From Octopus vulgaris (taxonomy: Eukaryota), in the NCBI GenBank assembly GCA_951406725.2, contig OX597834.1, positions 13,950,001 to 14,014,000 on the forward strand: a stretch of 64,000 bases of DNA, in the 5' to 3' direction. The stretch's first letter is position 1; each line of letters starts with the position of its first letter. The position numbers were made by a program, and so were the translations under genes. The notes beneath the pieces were generated by a model. It was not told the origin of the DNA. It saw nothing but the letters and a program-made list of their open reading frames with translations, and made no database searches. Positions 33,736-57,200 of this stretch are shown here, piece by piece.

Positions 33736-33918
33736 GTGTGTGTTTGTGTGTGTATGTATATATATATATACACAACGACCTCGAATCCACAAGAGTGAAC
33801 AAGAGAGACAGAGAAAGGCAGAAACAAGGAAAATGCCACTTATATTTGAACACTATACAAATATTCTTTTAAAAAAACTTTTCTTTTAATTTTTCTAATT
33901 TTAATTATTTAATCGTTA

Positions 33919-33956
33919 CAGTTGAAAAGGTCTCAAAATGACTGAAACCGGTACTG
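33919..33956 (+). ncRNA. Minimal type I hammerhead motif, U3-A8 variant
   Basis: cag-TTGAAAA-ggtc tcaaaat gact-GAAA-CCGG-TA-ctg; G-U at the base of stem II. Confidence 0.65.
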
Positions 33957-34317
33957 AAATGTTCTTTATAAAATTATTTTAGCATTTTCTATTTTGACTT
34001 ATTTTTTCATATATATATATATTAAATAAGTATTATTACCGTCATTTAATAATATTAATAATGATACTAATAAGGAAGCTAATAATAATAATAGTGAATA
34101 ACTGGTGGTTTTCGAACGATGGCTCTAATTACATCAAGTGGTATTTAAATACTCTATAGTATTTCAATTCAGTATCTGTGTGTGTGTGCGTATGTGTGTG
34201 TGCGTATGTGTGTGTGCATGTGTGTGTGTGCATGTGTGTGTGTGTGCGTATCTATAAAAGAAAAATAGATATAGAATCAACAAGAAAAGTGAGTACGATT
34301 CGACATATGTTTAATAG

Positions 34318-34640: not shown

Positions 34641-35033
34641 TAGCAGTATCGCCCGGCGTTGCTCGGGTTTGTAGGGGAAATAACTATATAAGCATTTTTA
34701 GAGATGTAAAGTATAATAGCCATCTCAATATGGCTAAGCACAAAGGGGGGTGTTACTGTAGCTTTTTACGTTCTGAGATTTAATAATACATTTTTAGAGA
34801 ATTACGTCCCTTATATAATAGCAAAAAAATGCTTTAAAAATGGGAAAAAATGATGGTAATATTTTTTTAAATCGTAGACTCATCGTAGACGCGCGCTAAT
34901 ACCCAGAAGGGCTCGATATGAATCACGACTATTAGATACCCGCTTTTGGTTACACTGCACCGCAAAATGTGGGAGTAGTTAGGAATTTAAATCGTAGGAG
35001 ACAGACACACAACTTCACTTTTATATATAATGA
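34640..35033 (-). mobile_element. Non-autonomous Helitron, complete (394 bp)
   Basis: Minus strand begins TC(attatatataaaag), ends with hairpin cccgagcaacgccggg then ...CTAG, and is inserted between A and T with no TSD. Confidence 0.85.
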
Positions 35034-35686: not shown

Positions 35687-37714
35687 ATGCGTTAATACAT
35701 ACACATATATACGCAAACGTACGTTGTGGAAATATGGTTATATTCGCCTCTCTGTGTATGGCTTCGTGTATGTGTGCGCAGACGGCACCTGTATTATTAA
35801 ACTTATCCATTTGAGAAAGTGTTTTATTTACTTAGCTTCTATGAATTCATTTCATTTAGTGATGAAGGTGAAACTGCCATTTTTTTCCTCACATCTGTTC
35901 CTGTGTCATGTCAACCAAACATTACAAGTATCGCTATTCATTTCCTGTCTTTTGAGAGGAATCGATCGATCACACGTTCTTAATGGAAATTCCAACAGTT
36001 ACACATCTCACGAACATATTTCTACTCAACGATTAAATCTTATTTTTCATCATACCGCGTGACGTTTGTCTACGTGTTTATCCAGTTCGGAACAATGCTG
36101 GAAGTGTTTTCTCGTTTGGTTTCTTAATAACCCAAATTTCTCATGTGTATGGAGACATTTATGCATGCTGGCACGTTTATATATATTTGTAGGAGGCGTA
36201 TGACCTTTACAGGCGCATGCAAAGCTGTCTGGTAAGAAGCTTGCTTCACTACCAAACGGTACTCGGTTCAGTCGAACTGCATAGCAACATGGGCAAGTGT
36301 TTTATACCATACACTCATGCCGAAAAAGAGTGGATTTGGGAGGCGGAAACTGAAAGAAGCCTGTTGTGTGTATATATATACAAATTGAGATAGGGGTTGT
36401 AAATGCAACCCTCCAGGGGATAACATATATATAACATATATATATATATATATATTTGTATGTGTGTCTGTGTTTGTACGCCCATTATCGCAGGACAACC
36501 GATGTTGGTGAGTTTACGTCACCGCAACCCAACTGTCACGCCACAGATAATTATACATGTATATACATATGGATATATATGTGTATATCTATATATATAT
36601 GTGTGTGTGTGTGTATGTATGTATGTATATAATAGTAATGTATAATAGCCAACCAAGTGTGGCATCATATACATGACAATGCTACTGACGTTTTTAACCA
36701 CAGGTTGACATCTCCTCCAGCTGGTTAATTACACACTTTCTGTGTACGATAAGTAGTTGCGAAGGAAGGTCATCGCTGCCAACTATAGCCTTACAGGATA
36801 AACACGGACTCGAGTTTCTAAGTCGTTAGCTGTTTTCAGCTTGTGCTAATCTAGGGGGATCAGACTGAAGGACGAAAACGCGGAGAAATTTCCCAGCAAC
36901 ATTAGCAAAACATTATTAAAAACCAACATCTGATGCAGAGTCTGAACTGTTTTGGGTAATTGTTCAAATGTCCAGGGTTCCAGAGAAAATAACTCGTGAG
37001 AATTATTATGTAACATAGACGGCAGGGATGACGATTGGAAAAATGACGATTGAGGCTGAAAAGATGACCTGTTTATATAATGCTAATCGAACCAAATGTC
37101 TTCTTGAAATGAATTGTAAATGAATTATGTGGCTGATCGACAGGAAAACTGGAAGTAAAATAATAAACGATTCTGAGCTCACTTGATGAAATGAAAGGGT
37201 CCATTGAGTAACATCGTTTTGAGAAACTTAAAAATCGTGTAAGAGCATTATCTGTTATTAAACTTTTAATACTTTTGATATATATTTAAAATAAAAATAA
37301 AAAAAAATTAATTAATAAAATAATATATAAATATAAAAATATACATACATACATATATATATATATTTGTATATATATATATAATTTATAAGTTTAAATT
37401 ATTTAAATAATATTTTTTTTAATTTTATATTTTTAAATTAATTTTATGTATTGGCTTATGTTTTTCACTGTTTGATTTGCCTAATAGTGGTTTTATCTCT
37501 AATTTAATATAATATATATATATATAAATATATATATATTTACACCCACACGTACACACCAGTGGTCAGTGACAGAGTGAGGTGATTCTTCTTCTCTTCT
37601 TCTTCTCCTATTTCTTTTTCCTCTCCTCCTCGTCCTGCTCCTCCTTCTTCTTCTTCTTGAACGTCGTCGTTTCATCATCATCATTATTATTGTTGTTGTT
37701 GTTGTTGCTTTCTT

Positions 37715-39095: not shown

Positions 39096-39231
39096 TTAAA
39101 CTTAAATGTTGAAGTGAATCGAACGGCTTTTGTGTGTTTCTTAAATGGCTTATAAACACCTTCCACGCTGCAATTGTTTTCGTTTCAGCACACGATCTCA
39201 GATCAAATTACTTGCTATGCGAGTACATCTC

Positions 39232-39690
39232 CGTAAAAGTAAATATTTGTAGAAATTGAACTCTCCGTGAAGAAATATGGACCCATTATTCGACTGCAGC
39301 AATGATTCGATCCTACACCAGACAGTTACCTTTGTTCTATCTCTGTGAAATTCCATAGAGACATGGGGGTGTTCTGATCCCCAAATCCTCACATTACGGG
39401 TGTTCAGTTTCCCTGAAACATGAGAGGTTGCCTCATCGTTTAAACAATCTCGGGTGAGGAATGCTGCATCCTCAGACGTAAGTTTCAACATGATAACTGC
39501 AAACTCATTTCGTCTTAGTTTCAAATTTCGTTGGAGTACCTGTAAAAATTTCACCTTGTAAGCATACAATCACAAGTTCTTTTGTAGGACTTTGTGTACT
39601 GTATAACGTGGTAGCTGTGAGTGTCTGACAGCAGCACTTATAGACTTTGTAGGAGACCTAGCAAAGGCTTGTCTCACACAAAGTTCCTTA

Positions 39691-40182: not shown

Positions 40183-41514
40183 CAAGATGTCCATAAAGTC
40201 TCTTTAAAATGTCAAAGAGGTATTACAAAGGCAATCGTTTAGATATGTTTGTCAGATTTATGCTATCTACTCAGTGGTTGTCAGAGTTTTTATCCTCATT
40301 GAATTTGTATGTTTCCCAGGTACCATGTAGAGGGAAAAGTTTCTGTTAAATGGAACCCTAAAAATGTGGTTCTTCCTCAAGAAAAGGCACGATGTGTATC
40401 CTGTTTTACTAGCACAAAATTGGACACGCAAACCAAGCGAAGCCTTAGGATTAAATATGGAATATATCCACAGTCACGTCCGTCAATTTGTGCATATCAC
40501 AAGAAGTGTATAGCAACAAGAGAAGTGTTGGCTGACCAAATTTATCTGAGGAACATATTAAGGAACTTTGTGTGAGACAAGCCTTTGCTAGGTCTCCTAC
40601 AAAGTCTATAAGTGCTGCTGTCAGACACTCACAGCTACCACGTTATACAGTACACAAAGTCCTACAAAAGAACTTGTGATTGTATGCTTACAAGGTGAAA
40701 TTTTTACAGGTACTCCAACGAAATTTGAAACTAAGACGAAATGAGTTTGCAGTTATCATGTTGAAACTTACGTCTGAGGATGCAGCATTCCTCACCCGAG
40801 ATTGTTTAAACGATGAGGCAACCTCTCATGTTTCAGGGAAACTGAACACCCGTAATGTGAGGATTTGGGGATCAGAACACCCCCATGTCTCTATGGAATT
40901 TCACAGAGATAGAACAAAGGTAACTGTCTGGTGTAGGATCGAATCATTGCTGCAGTCGAATAATGGGTCCATATTTCTTCACGGAGAGTTCAATTTCTAC
41001 AAATATTTACTTTTACGTTTTGACCGAATAAGTGGCACCACAAGTGGATAACGTTCAATCTACCATCATTTTCCATCAAGATGGTGCACCACCATATTGG
41101 GGACTGCATGTTAGTGGGTTACTAAATTAAACATTTCCTGACCGGTGGATTCGAAGGGATGGCCCAATTCCCTGGCCACCCTGTTCACCTGATATCACTC
41201 CAAGAGCTTTTATTCTATGGGGTTATGATAAAGACATCGTGTATCGAACAAATGTACGGGAACTCAAGTACCTGGATCACTGATGCATTGCTACTATTGA
41301 TAAGGCCATTCTACACCAAATATGGCATGAAACTGATTATCGTTTTGGTGTGCTTCGAACACCTCACTGTGCTCATATAGACATGTATTAAATGAGGCAA
41401 AAAAAAAACCTTCAATGTCTCCTCCTCGTTTTGTAATAATTTGCACAGATTTATCTATTCATTTGCTTTTATAATAAATTATTGAAATTATATAGAGGCT
41501 ATATGGACACTCTA
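40183..41514 (+). mobile_element. Near full-length decayed Tc1/mariner element, DD41D (rosa-like) type
   Basis: TA-flanked TIRs caagatgtccataaagtctc / gaggctatatggacactcta; N-terminal PQEKARCVSCF..SRPSICAYHKK (DUF4817-like HTH); DEATSHVSGKLNTRNVRIWGSEHP; QDGAPPYW...WPPCSPDITPRAF with 41 residues between D2 and the D3 position (mutated to A); stops and frameshifts. Confidence 0.85.
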
Positions 41515-47199: not shown

Positions 47200-47797
47200 A
47201 TATATATATATTCTTTTTTTCTTTTGTTTGTTTCAGTCTCCGATTTTAGTCGAGCAAATCGACCCCAGTACTTATTCTTTGTAAGCCTGGTACTTATTAT
47301 ATCGGGTCCTTTTGCCGAAACACTAAGTTACGGGGACGTAAACACACCAGTACCGGTTGTCAAATAGTAATAGCCCTTAATACAATGTATTTATGTTTAA
47401 AGGAAAAATTATATATTTGCATGTATATATATATATAAATATATACATAAGTGTGTGTGTATCTGTGTGTGGGGATTGTTATGTTGATCCATCTTCAAAG
47501 ATGATTATCCTATCTTCCTTGATCTTTCTTTTTCGCATTTACATTTCTGACTTTCCATCCATGGCATTACAGATGACCAGTCACTCCCTTTGTTAATCTG
47601 TATAGTTTGAAGCATTGGTTTCAGACAAAAGTTATAGATTTCTGCACGCTTTCTACTGGCTAGTCTTTCACGCGTCAGCACTTCTGTTGCTATAGGAATT
47701 TTATTACATGTTTATATCTCGTTCAGAGATTTATTATTGTTTTCAGACAGTTTTTCTACATCAGTGACAGTAGTTACTGTGAAAAACCTTATCTATG

Positions 47798-47926
47798 TTG
47801 CCTGTAGAGGGAATCCTTCAGCGAAGAGCGGTACTTACCATACGTTGATAAGAGGCAATGACCTCGAAACCGGTCCGTATGTAGTATCCGTATCTTCGAG
47901 GGAGGATGACCTCCCTTTACAGGCAA
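47798..47926 (+). ncRNA. Type I hammerhead (U3-A8) capping a long imperfect stem I
   Basis: catacg-TTGATAA-gagg caatga cctc-GAAA-CCGG-TC-cgtatg (47839-47881); outer helices cgaaga/tcttcg, atccttc/ggaggat, ttgcctgtagaggga/tccctttacaggcaa. Confidence 0.8.
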
Positions 47927-48307
47927 ACAAGGACACTGATATGGTGTCAGTCCTTCTGGTGACGTTGATGATCGCCTGGGGCTAAAAGCATCAGTAACAC
48001 CCCCACCACACCGCCCTGTCCCTAGCCACATTCAGATGGCTGATCCCCCTTACGTTACAATGATAAAGATGTTCACAAGAAAAGAATCATCTGTACGTCA
48101 TTCTGTCTGATTCGTACCTAACCTTTAAACATAATCTGGCTGTGTGGCTCCAGTTCGGAACTGCCAGTGTATTCCGGAGTGTGGAATCACATCTTAGACA
48201 CAATTTGCTCTCGTTTCTATTCTGACACGGAGCATTATCTCCATTCAGGTATAGGTAAACGATCACATATTATGACATTATATGTGATATGACATATTAT
48301 GACAAAG

Positions 48308-55608: not shown

Positions 55609-56074
55609 TATATATATACATATAATTCATATGCGTGCGTAAGTATGTATATAAGTATGGATGTATATATGCAATTCAGGCTTATTTCTCGATTACTTGC
55701 CAATGGAGAAAGATTTGGTTTCCAACCTGGATTAACGTATCTATTCGAATTCTAAACAGTATTAACACAGAACTTGGGCAAAATTGTGCATACTAAGGTC
55801 ATTTGTCGTGCATGTGCATATGCAGATTTGTAGGTCTTTTTCTGATGTGTGTATACACAGTGAGTATATTTTGGGTACAATTTTGGATTTCGTGGATTTA
55901 CTAATCGTATGAATTACTTATTTCTACATAGTATAACGTAAATCAGTAGATATAGTATCCATTAGAAGTGACATACCAAAGTTTCAATACAATTGAGTAA
56001 TATGTTATTGCTCCGCATTGACTGTAACGAAAACGGGTGTGTGACCATGTCTCTAGTGCCAGTGAAAGTGTCGT

Positions 56075-56780
56075 TGCGTGTGGAAGTACGTCGTGCGTGT
56101 GGAGGTACGTCGTACGTGTGGAAGTACGTCGTTCGTGTGGAAGTACGTCGTGCGTGTGGAAGTACGTCGTGCGTGTGAAGGTACGTCGTGCGTGTGGAAG
56201 TACGTCGTGCGCGTGGAAGTACGTCGTGCGTGTGGATGTACGTCGTGCGTGTGGAAGTACGTCGTGCGTGTGGAGGTACGTCGTGCGTGTGGAAGTACGT
56301 CGTGCGTGTGGAGGTACGTCATGCGCGTGGAGGTAGTCGTGCGTGTGGAGATACGTCATGCGTGTAGAAGTACGTCGTGCGTGTGGAGGTACGTCATGCG
56401 CGTGGAGGTAGTCGTGCGTGTGGAAGTACGTCGTGCGTGTGGAAGTACGTCGTGCCTGTGGAGGTACGTCATGCGCGTGGAGGTAGTCGTGCGTGTGGAA
56501 GTACGTCGTGCGTGTGGAAGTACGTCGTGCCTGTGGAGGTACGTCGTGCGTGTGGAAGTACGTCGTGCGTGTGAAAGTACGTCGTGCCTGTGGAGGTACG
56601 TCATGCGCGTGGAGGTAGTCGTGCGTGTGGAAGTACGTCGTGCGTGTGGAAGTACGTCGTGCCTGTGGAGGTACGTCGTGCGTGTGGAAGTACGTCGTGC
56701 GTGTGAAAGTACGTCGTGCGTGTGGAGGTACGCCCTGCGTGTGGAGGTACGTCGTGCGTGTGGAAGTACGCCGTGCGTGT
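56075..56780. repeat. CpG-rich 19-bp minisatellite (GTGGAAGTACGTCGTGCGT), about 37 units
   Basis: Direct reading; variant units recur in ordered blocks. Confidence 0.95.
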
Positions 56781-57200
56781 ATGACAGTTTCTGCTTTGAA
56801 CCTTGACTTTCGGCCATTGTATTAAATTTGATGCTGTTGATATTTAGTAATGACTCATCAGCCTACAACGAATCATAATATTGAATGCCCAATATTTGGT
56901 ACTCTCTGGGATCTTAGCAAACGAGTTTGCCAAATTACACGGGCGTTCTAAGATGTGTTTTATTTGAACGAGAAAAAGAAACGAAATTAGTTAAGAAAGA
57001 TTATTCAATTGAACAATATGTCGTGATTGTAGAAGGATCTCATAGTTTTATTGCTTTTTCATTTGTCTTTCTCAATTACGTTTTGGTAGTTTTGCAAAGT
57101 TTTTCTTGAAAACATTTCTTGGTGGTAAGACCATCGCGGATCTATTTCTAGCATAAAGGTTTCCACATAGTGGTTTCCGTCTAATATGTATATATGTATT

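What the first reader, a model, noticed from the sequence alone, without database searches (positions are those of the whole stretch)
47798..48042. Highly structured ~250-nt element with a hammerhead capping a ~45-bp stem: candidate retrozyme-like RNA
Seen: the cleanest HHR in the window (U3-A8 core, 4-bp stem II, GUC at 47873-47875). Its stem I continues through bulged helices to a 15-bp closing helix (47798-47812/47912-47926). Three more hairpins follow: aagg..actgata/tgtcagt.cctt (47929-47955), tgatg/catca (~47959-48000) and tagcca/tggctg. It is GC-richer than the pLTR-like relics and has no adjacent AATAAA or (TA)n. Established: metazoan non-LTR retrozymes are short structured repeats with type I HHRs that give circular RNAs, and some LINEs use 5' ribozymes. 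Inference: a distinct ribozyme element, either a retrozyme monomer or a self-cleaving retrotransposon leader.
Basis: partly seen in the sequence, partly recalled or inferred. Interest (0 to 1): 0.75.

Follow-up and report, generated by a model that had tools for sequence, protein, structure and literature searches.

The report
Retrozyme copy with Penelope insertion footprint
This is one solitary copy of a small, protein-less jumping repeat that carries a predicted self-cutting RNA motif; the kind (a retrozyme) is already known, and the way its sister copies sit in the genome suggests they are likely pasted in by Penelope-type retrotransposon enzymes.

Summary
The hammerhead is real: a canonical metazoan type I motif (6-bp stem I, 4-bp stem II, 2-bp palindromic stem III, U3-A8 core, predicted cut after 47875). 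The element is larger than reported: 47704-48057 is one 354-bp copy of a 360-361-bp non-coding unit (57 exact core matches genome-wide). At least six related subfamilies exist; one forms 360-bp arrays of up to 22 units. Across subfamilies the hammerhead, its 3-8 core pair and the extended stem covary. In 47 loci, 63 of 72 free 3' ends fall at two fixed sites about 46 nt apart, 46 of them at (TA)n, none at the cut site; 22 loci have inverted arms. This is the Penelope-like (PLE) insertion signature, also shown by two young autonomous PLE families here, but no sequence-related partner was found. A U2-promoter-like motif predicts a start near 47820. This copy is solitary, has one ribozyme and cannot itself yield a circle. 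No LINE link. Cleavage and circular RNA are untested. Verdict: new member of the known non-LTR retrozymes; this scan noted the same system before on other DNA.

The parts
47704..48057 (+). Solitary copy of a 360-361-bp non-coding retrozyme unit (subfamily A); lacks only the 8-9-nt junction, has no tail, no inverted arm, no TSD; 5' edge 47704-47709
   Evidence: Genome search: copies align over query 5-358; closest other copy 98.8% over 343 nt; junctions; no shared word over 5 nt between the flanks
47709..47742 (+). Segment that forms the 3' 'tail' in other copies; the best conserved part of the superfamily
   Evidence: 20 of 72 free 3' ends stop here; 1252 exact matches of a 29-nt motif, control 0
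47754..47769 (+). Motif resembling the element at -57 to -61 of U2 snRNA genes of this genome (predicted proximal sequence element)
   Evidence: 13 of 15 U2 loci carry it; best matrix hit falls at this homologous place in 15 of 15 units
47817..47821 (+). Predicted transcription start (most likely A47820); inferred from spacing only
   Evidence: 57-61 nt after the motif, as in U2 genes
47798..47926 (+). Long bulged stem (36 pairs beyond stem I) carrying the hammerhead; the outer 22 pairs need sequence upstream of the predicted start, so would form only in multimers or circles
   Evidence: inner 14 pairs 86.5% paired with 8 two-sided changes, outer 15-bp helix only 65.6% in the alignment
47839..47881 (+). 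Canonical type I hammerhead motif: stem I 6 bp, U3-A8 core, stem II 4 bp with 6-nt loop, stem III 2 bp in a palindromic hexamer (47869-47874)
   Evidence: matches the canonical metazoan layout described in PMC4209133
47875..47875 (+). C17, predicted self-cleavage site (cut 3' of this base); untested
   Evidence: position in the hammerhead consensus
47932..47948 (+). Conserved hairpin
   Evidence: 96.7% of cells paired in 15 units
47958..47976 (+). Conserved hairpin
   Evidence: 84.4% paired, 4 of 6 pairs with two-sided changes
48023..48042 (+). Conserved hairpin just before the unit end
   Evidence: 91.1% paired; probability 0.55-1.0 in the finding's span
48052..48057 (+). Fixed 3' end of the unit, inferred main start site of reverse transcription
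   Evidence: 43 of 72 free 3' ends

Best explanation
47704-48057 is a solitary copy of a 360-361-bp non-coding repeat with a canonical type I hammerhead motif, a non-LTR retrozyme that is likely transcribed from its own snRNA-type promoter, predicted to be cut out of tandem transcripts by the ribozyme, and likely pasted back by Penelope-like (PLE) reverse transcriptase/GIY-YIG enzymes in trans. Shown by sequence: the motif, the unit, tandem arrays in the superfamily, covariation, two fixed 3' ends, variable 5' ends, inverted arms, (TA)n targets, and intact young PLE ORFs in the same genome. Inferred cycle: (1) Pol II starts near 47820, 55 nt before the cut site, and reads through tandem units; (2) two hammerheads pair their palindromic stems III and cut at each C17, releasing a ~360-nt monomer that a host ligase would close, as shown for coral, mussel and axolotl; (3) a PLE protein nicks (TA)n and primes internally at one of two sites about 180 and 225 nt downstream of C17, often on both strands, giving two arms with and without the tail; it must copy across C17, so the template is a circle or an uncut multimer, never the linear cut monomer alone. 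This copy is a one-armed product primed at the tail-less site; with one ribozyme it could at most be cut once and is likely a dead end.
For: Unit and copies: (57 exact core matches, control 0). 55 of 56 hammerheads found in 47 subfamily-A loci keep U3-A8; 2 of 47 loci hold two intact motifs 359-360 bp apart. Sister subfamily C: 1300 motif matches, 360-bp arrays, one with 22 near-full units in two arms. Covariation in 15 units of 6 subfamilies: 82.1% cells paired against 33-49% for slid controls, 25 of 79 pairs with two-sided changes (shuffled mean 16.2, 0 of 500); pair 3-8 is C-G 7, U-A 4, U-G 3, unpaired 1; stem III closing pairs invariant in 15 of 15. Ends: 43 at the unit end, 20 at the tail end, 9 elsewhere, of 72; (TA)4 within 24 nt for 46 of 63 against 512 of 9400 random places; nearest end to C17 is 18 nt away. 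In the 20 loci picked on the core motif alone, 18 hammerhead-bearing segments run to the unit end while their 5' starts range over unit positions 1-126. 22 of 47 loci have both orientations. These are the PLE features listed in PMC8557442 and explained in vitro in PMC11167929 (two internal RT starts bracket the tail; both strands cut and extended; AT-rich targets). Autonomous PLEs: RT plus GIY-YIG ORFs of 775 and 781 aa; 149 of 149 scored copies of one are 100% identical over 255 aa; its 9 free 3' ends split 4 without and 5 with a 30-35-nt tail, all at (TA)n. Promoter motif.
Against: Nothing here shows transcription, cleavage or circles. No autonomous PLE related in sequence was found: none in 46 GIY-YIG loci (only 150 of 6136 candidates were scored), and the 775-aa family's end scores 35 against subfamily C, within shuffles (max 39). 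In subfamily A the units of one insertion are not closer to each other than to the nearest other locus, share few rare variants (25 shared, 16 of them in one locus, against 117 unshared), and the two arms of L011 differ by 5.4% against 2.0% to another locus: a single circle for both arms is not shown there and is contradicted in some loci. Circular folding z-scores (-2.1 to -5.2, 6 units) are not strand-specific (antisense -0.9 to -4.2). The promoter matrix rests on 5 distinct sites and was anchored after I had seen the match; p was 0.02 or less in only 10 of 15 units and 0.18 in subfamily C. The tail (about 46 nt) is longer than the 30-40 bp in print. In the Xenopus preprint only 1 of 9 predicted dimers cleaved in vitro, and PAc used uncut RNA in vitro. 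This copy lacks (TA)n, tail and inversion.
Confidence: 0.82

Rival explanations
1. The unit is a non-autonomous mini-PLE that is copied from uncut linear tandem transcripts; the hammerhead is kept for another purpose (trimming the capped 5' end or read-through RNA, stability) and circles play no part in spreading.
For: PAc uses unprocessed RNA and ribozyme mutants do not change insertion in vitro (PMC11167929). No 3' end at C17. Stem III is unstable in the monomer. Subfamily A arms can come from different templates. The youngest subfamily has a U4C core, a change reported to lower activity in vitro (PMC3088659).
Against: Core, stem I and 3-8 pair are kept with compensation over 57-97% identical subfamilies. 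In subfamily C, arrays of up to 22 units are almost invariant and L153 carries one private base in all 7 units covering the site, in both arms, as expected if one monomer was read repeatedly. Canonical-type retrozymes of coral, mussel and axolotl do give circles (PMC7229834).
Confidence: 0.3
2. The sequence is the 5'-truncated pseudo-LTR of an autonomous PLE whose coding copies were missed.
For: Same insertion signature as PLEs; U3-A8 cores occur in PLE pLTRs (PMC4209133; the 781-aa family here); the GIY-YIG search was far from exhaustive.
Against: Wherever the sequence continues past the tail it continues into the next unit, with no ORF. PLE protein matches in 3 of 47 loci are decayed fragments; the two I read are separated from the unit by (TA)n.
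Confidence: 0.06
3. The hammerhead is the self-cleaving 5' leader of a LINE.
Against: No ORF of 300 aa or more of normal composition within 4 kb of 20 loci; the 18 ORFs of 150 aa or more found in 47 loci are unrelated to one another or belong to neighbouring repeats; the 10 segments starting at unit positions 95-135 are preceded by an inverted arm or flank, not a LINE tail.
Confidence: 0.02

Closest known systems
Metazoan non-LTR retrozymes of coral, mussel and axolotl (Cervera and de la Pena 2020, PMC7229834; parts 2-4 of 6 read: methods end, results, discussion; supplement not opened)
   Same: Type I hammerhead in a non-coding unit of 150-450 bp (mussel 350-390), GC under 50%, tandem copies, self-paired predicted circle, weak palindromic stem III suited to dimers; PLEs proposed as mobiliser
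   Different: Cephalopods are not mentioned in its main text (0 hits); U3-A8 and U4C cores; here a PLE footprint (two fixed ends, tail, inverted arms, (TA)n) replaces the TSDs it mentions; expression and circles shown there, untested here
Vertebrate retrozymes as PLE derivatives (Li, Clavereau, Pollet, bioRxiv 10.64898/2026.07.22.740005; parts 1-3 of 5 read; supplements closed and may bear on insertion structure)
   Same: Monomers, dimers and multimers; argues for non-autonomous PLE derivatives
   Different: Its evidence is co-occurrence and pLTR homology; mine is insertion anatomy, and no pLTR homology was found; this copy fails its 'active' criterion of two consecutive intact units
EN+ Penelope-like elements, e.g. 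Poseidon PAc (PMC11167929, parts 1-2 of 4 read; PMC8557442 and PMC4209133, passages)
   Same: 5' truncation, partial tandems, inverted 5' copy, tail at one end, AT-rich/(TA)n targets, internal RT starts, hammerhead upstream of the ends, U3-A8 variant
   Different: No ORF; canonical rather than minimal hammerhead; tail about 46 nt; unit 360 bp rather than 3-4 kb
Newt satellite 2 (seen only as a citing passage in PMC2220036, and in PMC7229834; the original paper was not held)
   Same: About 330-bp hammerhead repeat transcribed from an internal snRNA-type promoter
   Different: Promoter here is only predicted from a motif shared with this genome's U2 genes

Membership tests
Metazoan non-LTR retrozyme | Type I hammerhead motif in each unit | tested here: met
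   (56 motifs in 47 loci), covariation
Metazoan non-LTR retrozyme | Short unit of about 150-450 bp, GC under 50%, non-coding | tested here: met
   346-361 bp; 45.8% GC; tandem units abut with no ORF
Metazoan non-LTR retrozyme | Tandem copies with two or more intact ribozymes | tested here: met
   Met by the family (2 of 47 subfamily-A loci; arrays in subfamily C); the window copy itself is solitary
Metazoan non-LTR retrozyme | No LTR, PBS or PPT | tested here: inconclusive
   No LTR-type architecture in 47 loci; PBS and PPT were not searched
Metazoan non-LTR retrozyme | Highly self-paired predicted circle | tested here: met
   63-66% paired, z -2.1 to -5.2 in 6 units, 40 shuffles each; antisense similar
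Metazoan non-LTR retrozyme | Self-cleavage in vitro | not testable with these tools
   needs bench assay
Metazoan non-LTR retrozyme | Accumulation as linear and circular monomer RNA | not testable with these tools
   only contigs of runs not on record as RNA were available
Canonical metazoan type I hammerhead | Helix I 6 bp, helix II 4 bp, helix III 1-2 bp with 2-4-nt palindromic loop, conserved core with a 3-8 pair | tested here: met
   definition from PMC4209133
Canonical metazoan type I hammerhead | Loop 1-loop 2 tertiary contact | not tested
   an internal loop follows stem I and loop 2 has 6 nt, but the contact was not modelled
Autonomous EN+ Penelope-like element | ORF with RT and GIY-YIG between the repeats | tested here: not met
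Autonomous EN+ Penelope-like element | Insertion signature: 5' truncation, partial tandem, inverted copy, tail, microsatellite targets | tested here: met
   (works like a PLE insertion; not a member)
LINE with a 5' self-cleaving ribozyme | Ribozyme directly upstream of ORF1/ORF2, polyA end, TSD | tested here: not met
snRNA-promoter repeat (newt satellite 2 type) | Internal PSE-like element driving transcription | tested here: inconclusive
   motif and spacing match U2 genes; no start-site or reporter data

The most novel reading that the evidence does not exclude
This superfamily records the whole proposed retrozyme cycle in its insertions: an snRNA-type promoter makes multimers, paired hammerheads with swappable cores (C3-G8, U3-A8, U3-G8, U4C) release a 360-nt circle, and a currently expanding PLE primes at two fixed internal sites on both target strands and rolls round that circle, so that a viroid-sized host RNA is copied by an enzyme with which it shares structure, not sequence.
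Probability: 0.4. Interest if true: 0.62.

Novelty: new member of a known kind. Interest (0 to 1): 0.36.

Why it matters
How retrozyme RNAs get back into genomes is proposed but not shown: PMC7229834 names PLEs as a candidate and the 2026 preprint says the mechanism remains to be elucidated. Here the two priming sites, the target and two young intact PLE proteins are all identifiable, so the step can be tested with the published in vitro PLE assay. The subfamilies also form a natural series of hammerhead core variants. The window copy itself adds little: it is one solitary member of a minor subfamily, and the same system has been noted many times in this scan. Searches for 'retrozyme + octopus' and 'hammerhead ribozyme + octopus' and for retrozyme insertion anatomy listed no paper that describes it, judged from listings; the library lacks most subscription journals and Repbase/Dfam could not be checked.

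Tried and rejected
Rfam gathering scan: 0 matches, not informative for short-stem III hammerheads. Expression: no RNA holder listed. Contigs of four runs only guessed to be RNA cover parts of the unit and its junction, and two runs hold a 390-nt contig partly matching it (360 + 30 would fit a circle or a genomic array alike); not used as evidence, only as the lead to subfamily C. A second laying on subfamily C gave no result, so that question stays open. Partner search: a tail match next to a PLE in L090 proved to be a separate insertion of subfamily B; same-strand tail pairs 1.6 kb and 119 bp apart are local duplications; PLE fragments beside L035 and L039 are separated by (TA)n. Single-template test failed to support one circle per insertion in subfamily A. 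No pile-up of 5' ends at the predicted start or at C17 among 62 segment starts (by inspection). TSD search for the window copy negative. No PLE protein match in the window. Rows dropped: 3 of 50 subfamily-A loci were duplicates of others; 3 of the 9 'other' ends are alignment breaks inside continuing tandems, and 1 'unit end' (L045) runs on into a short tail. The first 30 loci were chosen by best full-length match, which biases their ends; the 20 chosen on the core motif do not share that bias. No earlier finding matched by sequence.

Full report
Observation. The sequence holds a type I hammerhead at 47839-47881 on the + strand: stem I of 6 bp, core with U3 and A8, stem II of 4 bp with a 6-nt loop, stem III of 2 bp inside a palindromic hexamer, and C17 at 47875. 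This is the canonical metazoan layout as defined in PMC4209133 (passages), which also reports the U3-A8 covariant in a PLE family; PMC3088659 (passages) states that 3-8 covariants are active in vitro. The reported span folds far better than shuffles (z -5.27, 0 of 200). Stem I, stem II, the extension and the 15-bp closing helix have pair probabilities mostly above 0.95, whereas stem III has 0.00 in the monomer, so efficient cutting would need two motifs pairing their palindromes (duplex -8.3 kcal/mol), as known for newt-type hammerheads. Of the three further hairpins, one holds, one is in another register and one is unlikely. Rfam gave no match.

The element. A genome search with 47700-48150 gave 102 matches from 40 scored of 2077 candidates, with a shared span of 47704-48057; 57 places match a 30-nt core pattern exactly, control 0. 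Tandem copies are joined by 8-9 nt, giving a unit of 360-361 bp with no ORF. The window copy is solitary, 98.8% identical to the closest other copy, and has neither tail, inversion, TSD nor (TA)n. The host is probably an octopus; I infer this from recalled resemblance of its SINE-like repeats and from earlier scan notes, not from a test.

Relatives. Following a tail match and a loose end led to further subfamilies. 142 full units (42 distinct) fell into 17 clusters at 95%; one cluster is a local 119-bp duplication, the others are 57-97% identical to the window copy. Subfamily C has 1300 motif matches in 360-bp arrays, one with 22 near-full units in two opposed arms; the shared tail motif has 1252 exact matches. 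On an alignment of 15 units (one per cluster for 14 of the 16 retrozyme clusters plus the window copy), the 79 pairs read from the window copy are 82.1% paired against 33-49% when slid, with 25 pairs changed on both sides (0 of 500 shuffles); stem I is 95.6% paired, the inner extension 86.5% with 8 two-sided changes, pair 3-8 is C-G 7, U-A 4, U-G 3, unpaired 1; the closing helix is weakest (65.6%), partly from register slips. The structure was taken from one of the rows and the rows are related, so these numbers lean in its favour. Folded as circles, 6 units give z -2.1 to -5.2, antisense -0.9 to -4.2.

How copies are inserted. In 47 subfamily-A loci, 72 free 3' ends lie at the unit end (43), about 46 nt further at a tail end (20) or elsewhere (9); 46 of the 63 are followed by (TA)4 within 24 nt against 5.4% of random places, and none lies at C17. 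In the 20 loci chosen on the core alone, 18 hammerhead-bearing segments reach the unit end while their 5' starts vary. 22 of 47 loci have both orientations and 12 a single segment. PMC8557442 (passages) lists these as PLE features, and PMC11167929 (parts 1-2) shows that a PLE protein cuts AT-rich DNA on both strands and starts reverse transcription at two internal sites that bracket the tail. The genome has young autonomous PLEs: 148 GIY-YIG matches from 150 scored, ORFs of 775 and 781 aa with RT and GIY-YIG domains (the RT scores lie just under Pfam's cut-off), 149 of 149 scored copies of one identical over 255 aa, with the same two-ended, (TA)n-bound anatomy and hammerheads with U3-A8 or U4C cores. 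No sequence link between these PLEs and the unit was found, so the partner is inferred, not identified.

Template. Since inserted copies run across C17 from a start about 180 or 225 nt downstream of it, the template must be a circle or an uncut multimer. Subfamily C leans to a re-read monomer: in 10 loci examined, units within an array are nearly invariant and L153 has a private base in all 7 units covering the site, in both arms; a source array with that base was not excluded. Subfamily A does not show this: 25 rare variants shared within loci against 117 unshared, and the arms of L011 come from different subtypes.

Promoter. Earlier scan notes suggested a U-snRNA-type promoter, which I tested. 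13 of 15 U2 loci carry a motif at -57 to -61 in three unlike upstream classes; a matrix from 5 distinct sites finds its best hit at the same homologous place in 15 of 15 units, at 47754-47769 in the window (0 of 200 shuffles), weaker in subfamily C. The anchor was chosen after seeing the match, so this is suggestive. A snRNA-type promoter is reported for newt satellite 2 (citing passage only).

LINE leader. Not supported: no long ORF follows the ribozyme, and the PLE fragments near L035 and L039 are separate insertions at (TA)n.

Comparison and verdict. It works like the retrozymes of coral, mussel and axolotl (PMC7229834) and meets every sequence-level feature tested; cleavage and circular RNA were not testable. 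PLE mobilisation is proposed there and in bioRxiv 10.64898/2026.07.22.740005; in the parts read, neither uses tails or inverted arms as evidence, and their supplements were not seen. Earlier agents of this scan reached the same reading on other DNA of this and other genomes; these notes are not independent support. New member of a known kind; the window copy is likely a dead-end insertion. Interest 0.36.

Noticed in passing
L138, L151-L155 (subfamily C); L090:4806 and L167-L174 (775-aa PLE): The youngest retrozyme subfamily and the currently expanding PLE both have a U4C hammerhead core; a natural U4C is noted for a viroid in PMC3088659. Shared variant without other sequence likeness.
   Followed up: partly
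L154:576-2355 (-): One variant alternates between successive units (absent, present, absent, present, absent), as from a two-unit template or a later dimer duplication.
   Followed up: no
window 34641-35000: A repeat inserted at (TA)n, found also in L038 and L124, carries a 62-nt antisense piece 88.7% identical to subfamily F of the retrozyme (34704-34764). Its start resembles Helitron-type elements (recalled).
   Followed up: partly
window 36679-36851 (-): Decayed relic of subfamily B, about 72% identical, hammerhead core lost.
   Followed up: partly
window 33922 (+) and 26634 (-): Two other U3-A8 hammerhead-like motifs with the same palindromic stem III hexamer; 33781-34010 is a repeat also in L163, L092 and L047.
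   Followed up: partly
L091:1437-1990: An unrelated unit with a 360-bp period and a U3-A8 canonical-type hammerhead, inserted next to a PLE end; probably another retrozyme family.
   Followed up: no
L084, L168-L174: Both young PLE families have an extra upstream ORF of about 450-480 codons overlapping the RT-endonuclease ORF in another frame, unlike the single ORF given for canonical PLEs.
   Followed up: no
window 39198-39569 (-) and 40680-41051 (-): Two near-identical 123-aa frames that look like a transposase fragment (recalled resemblance), in a local duplication.
   Followed up: no
window 55943-56862: G+C-rich minisatellite giving long repetitive open frames.
   Followed up: no
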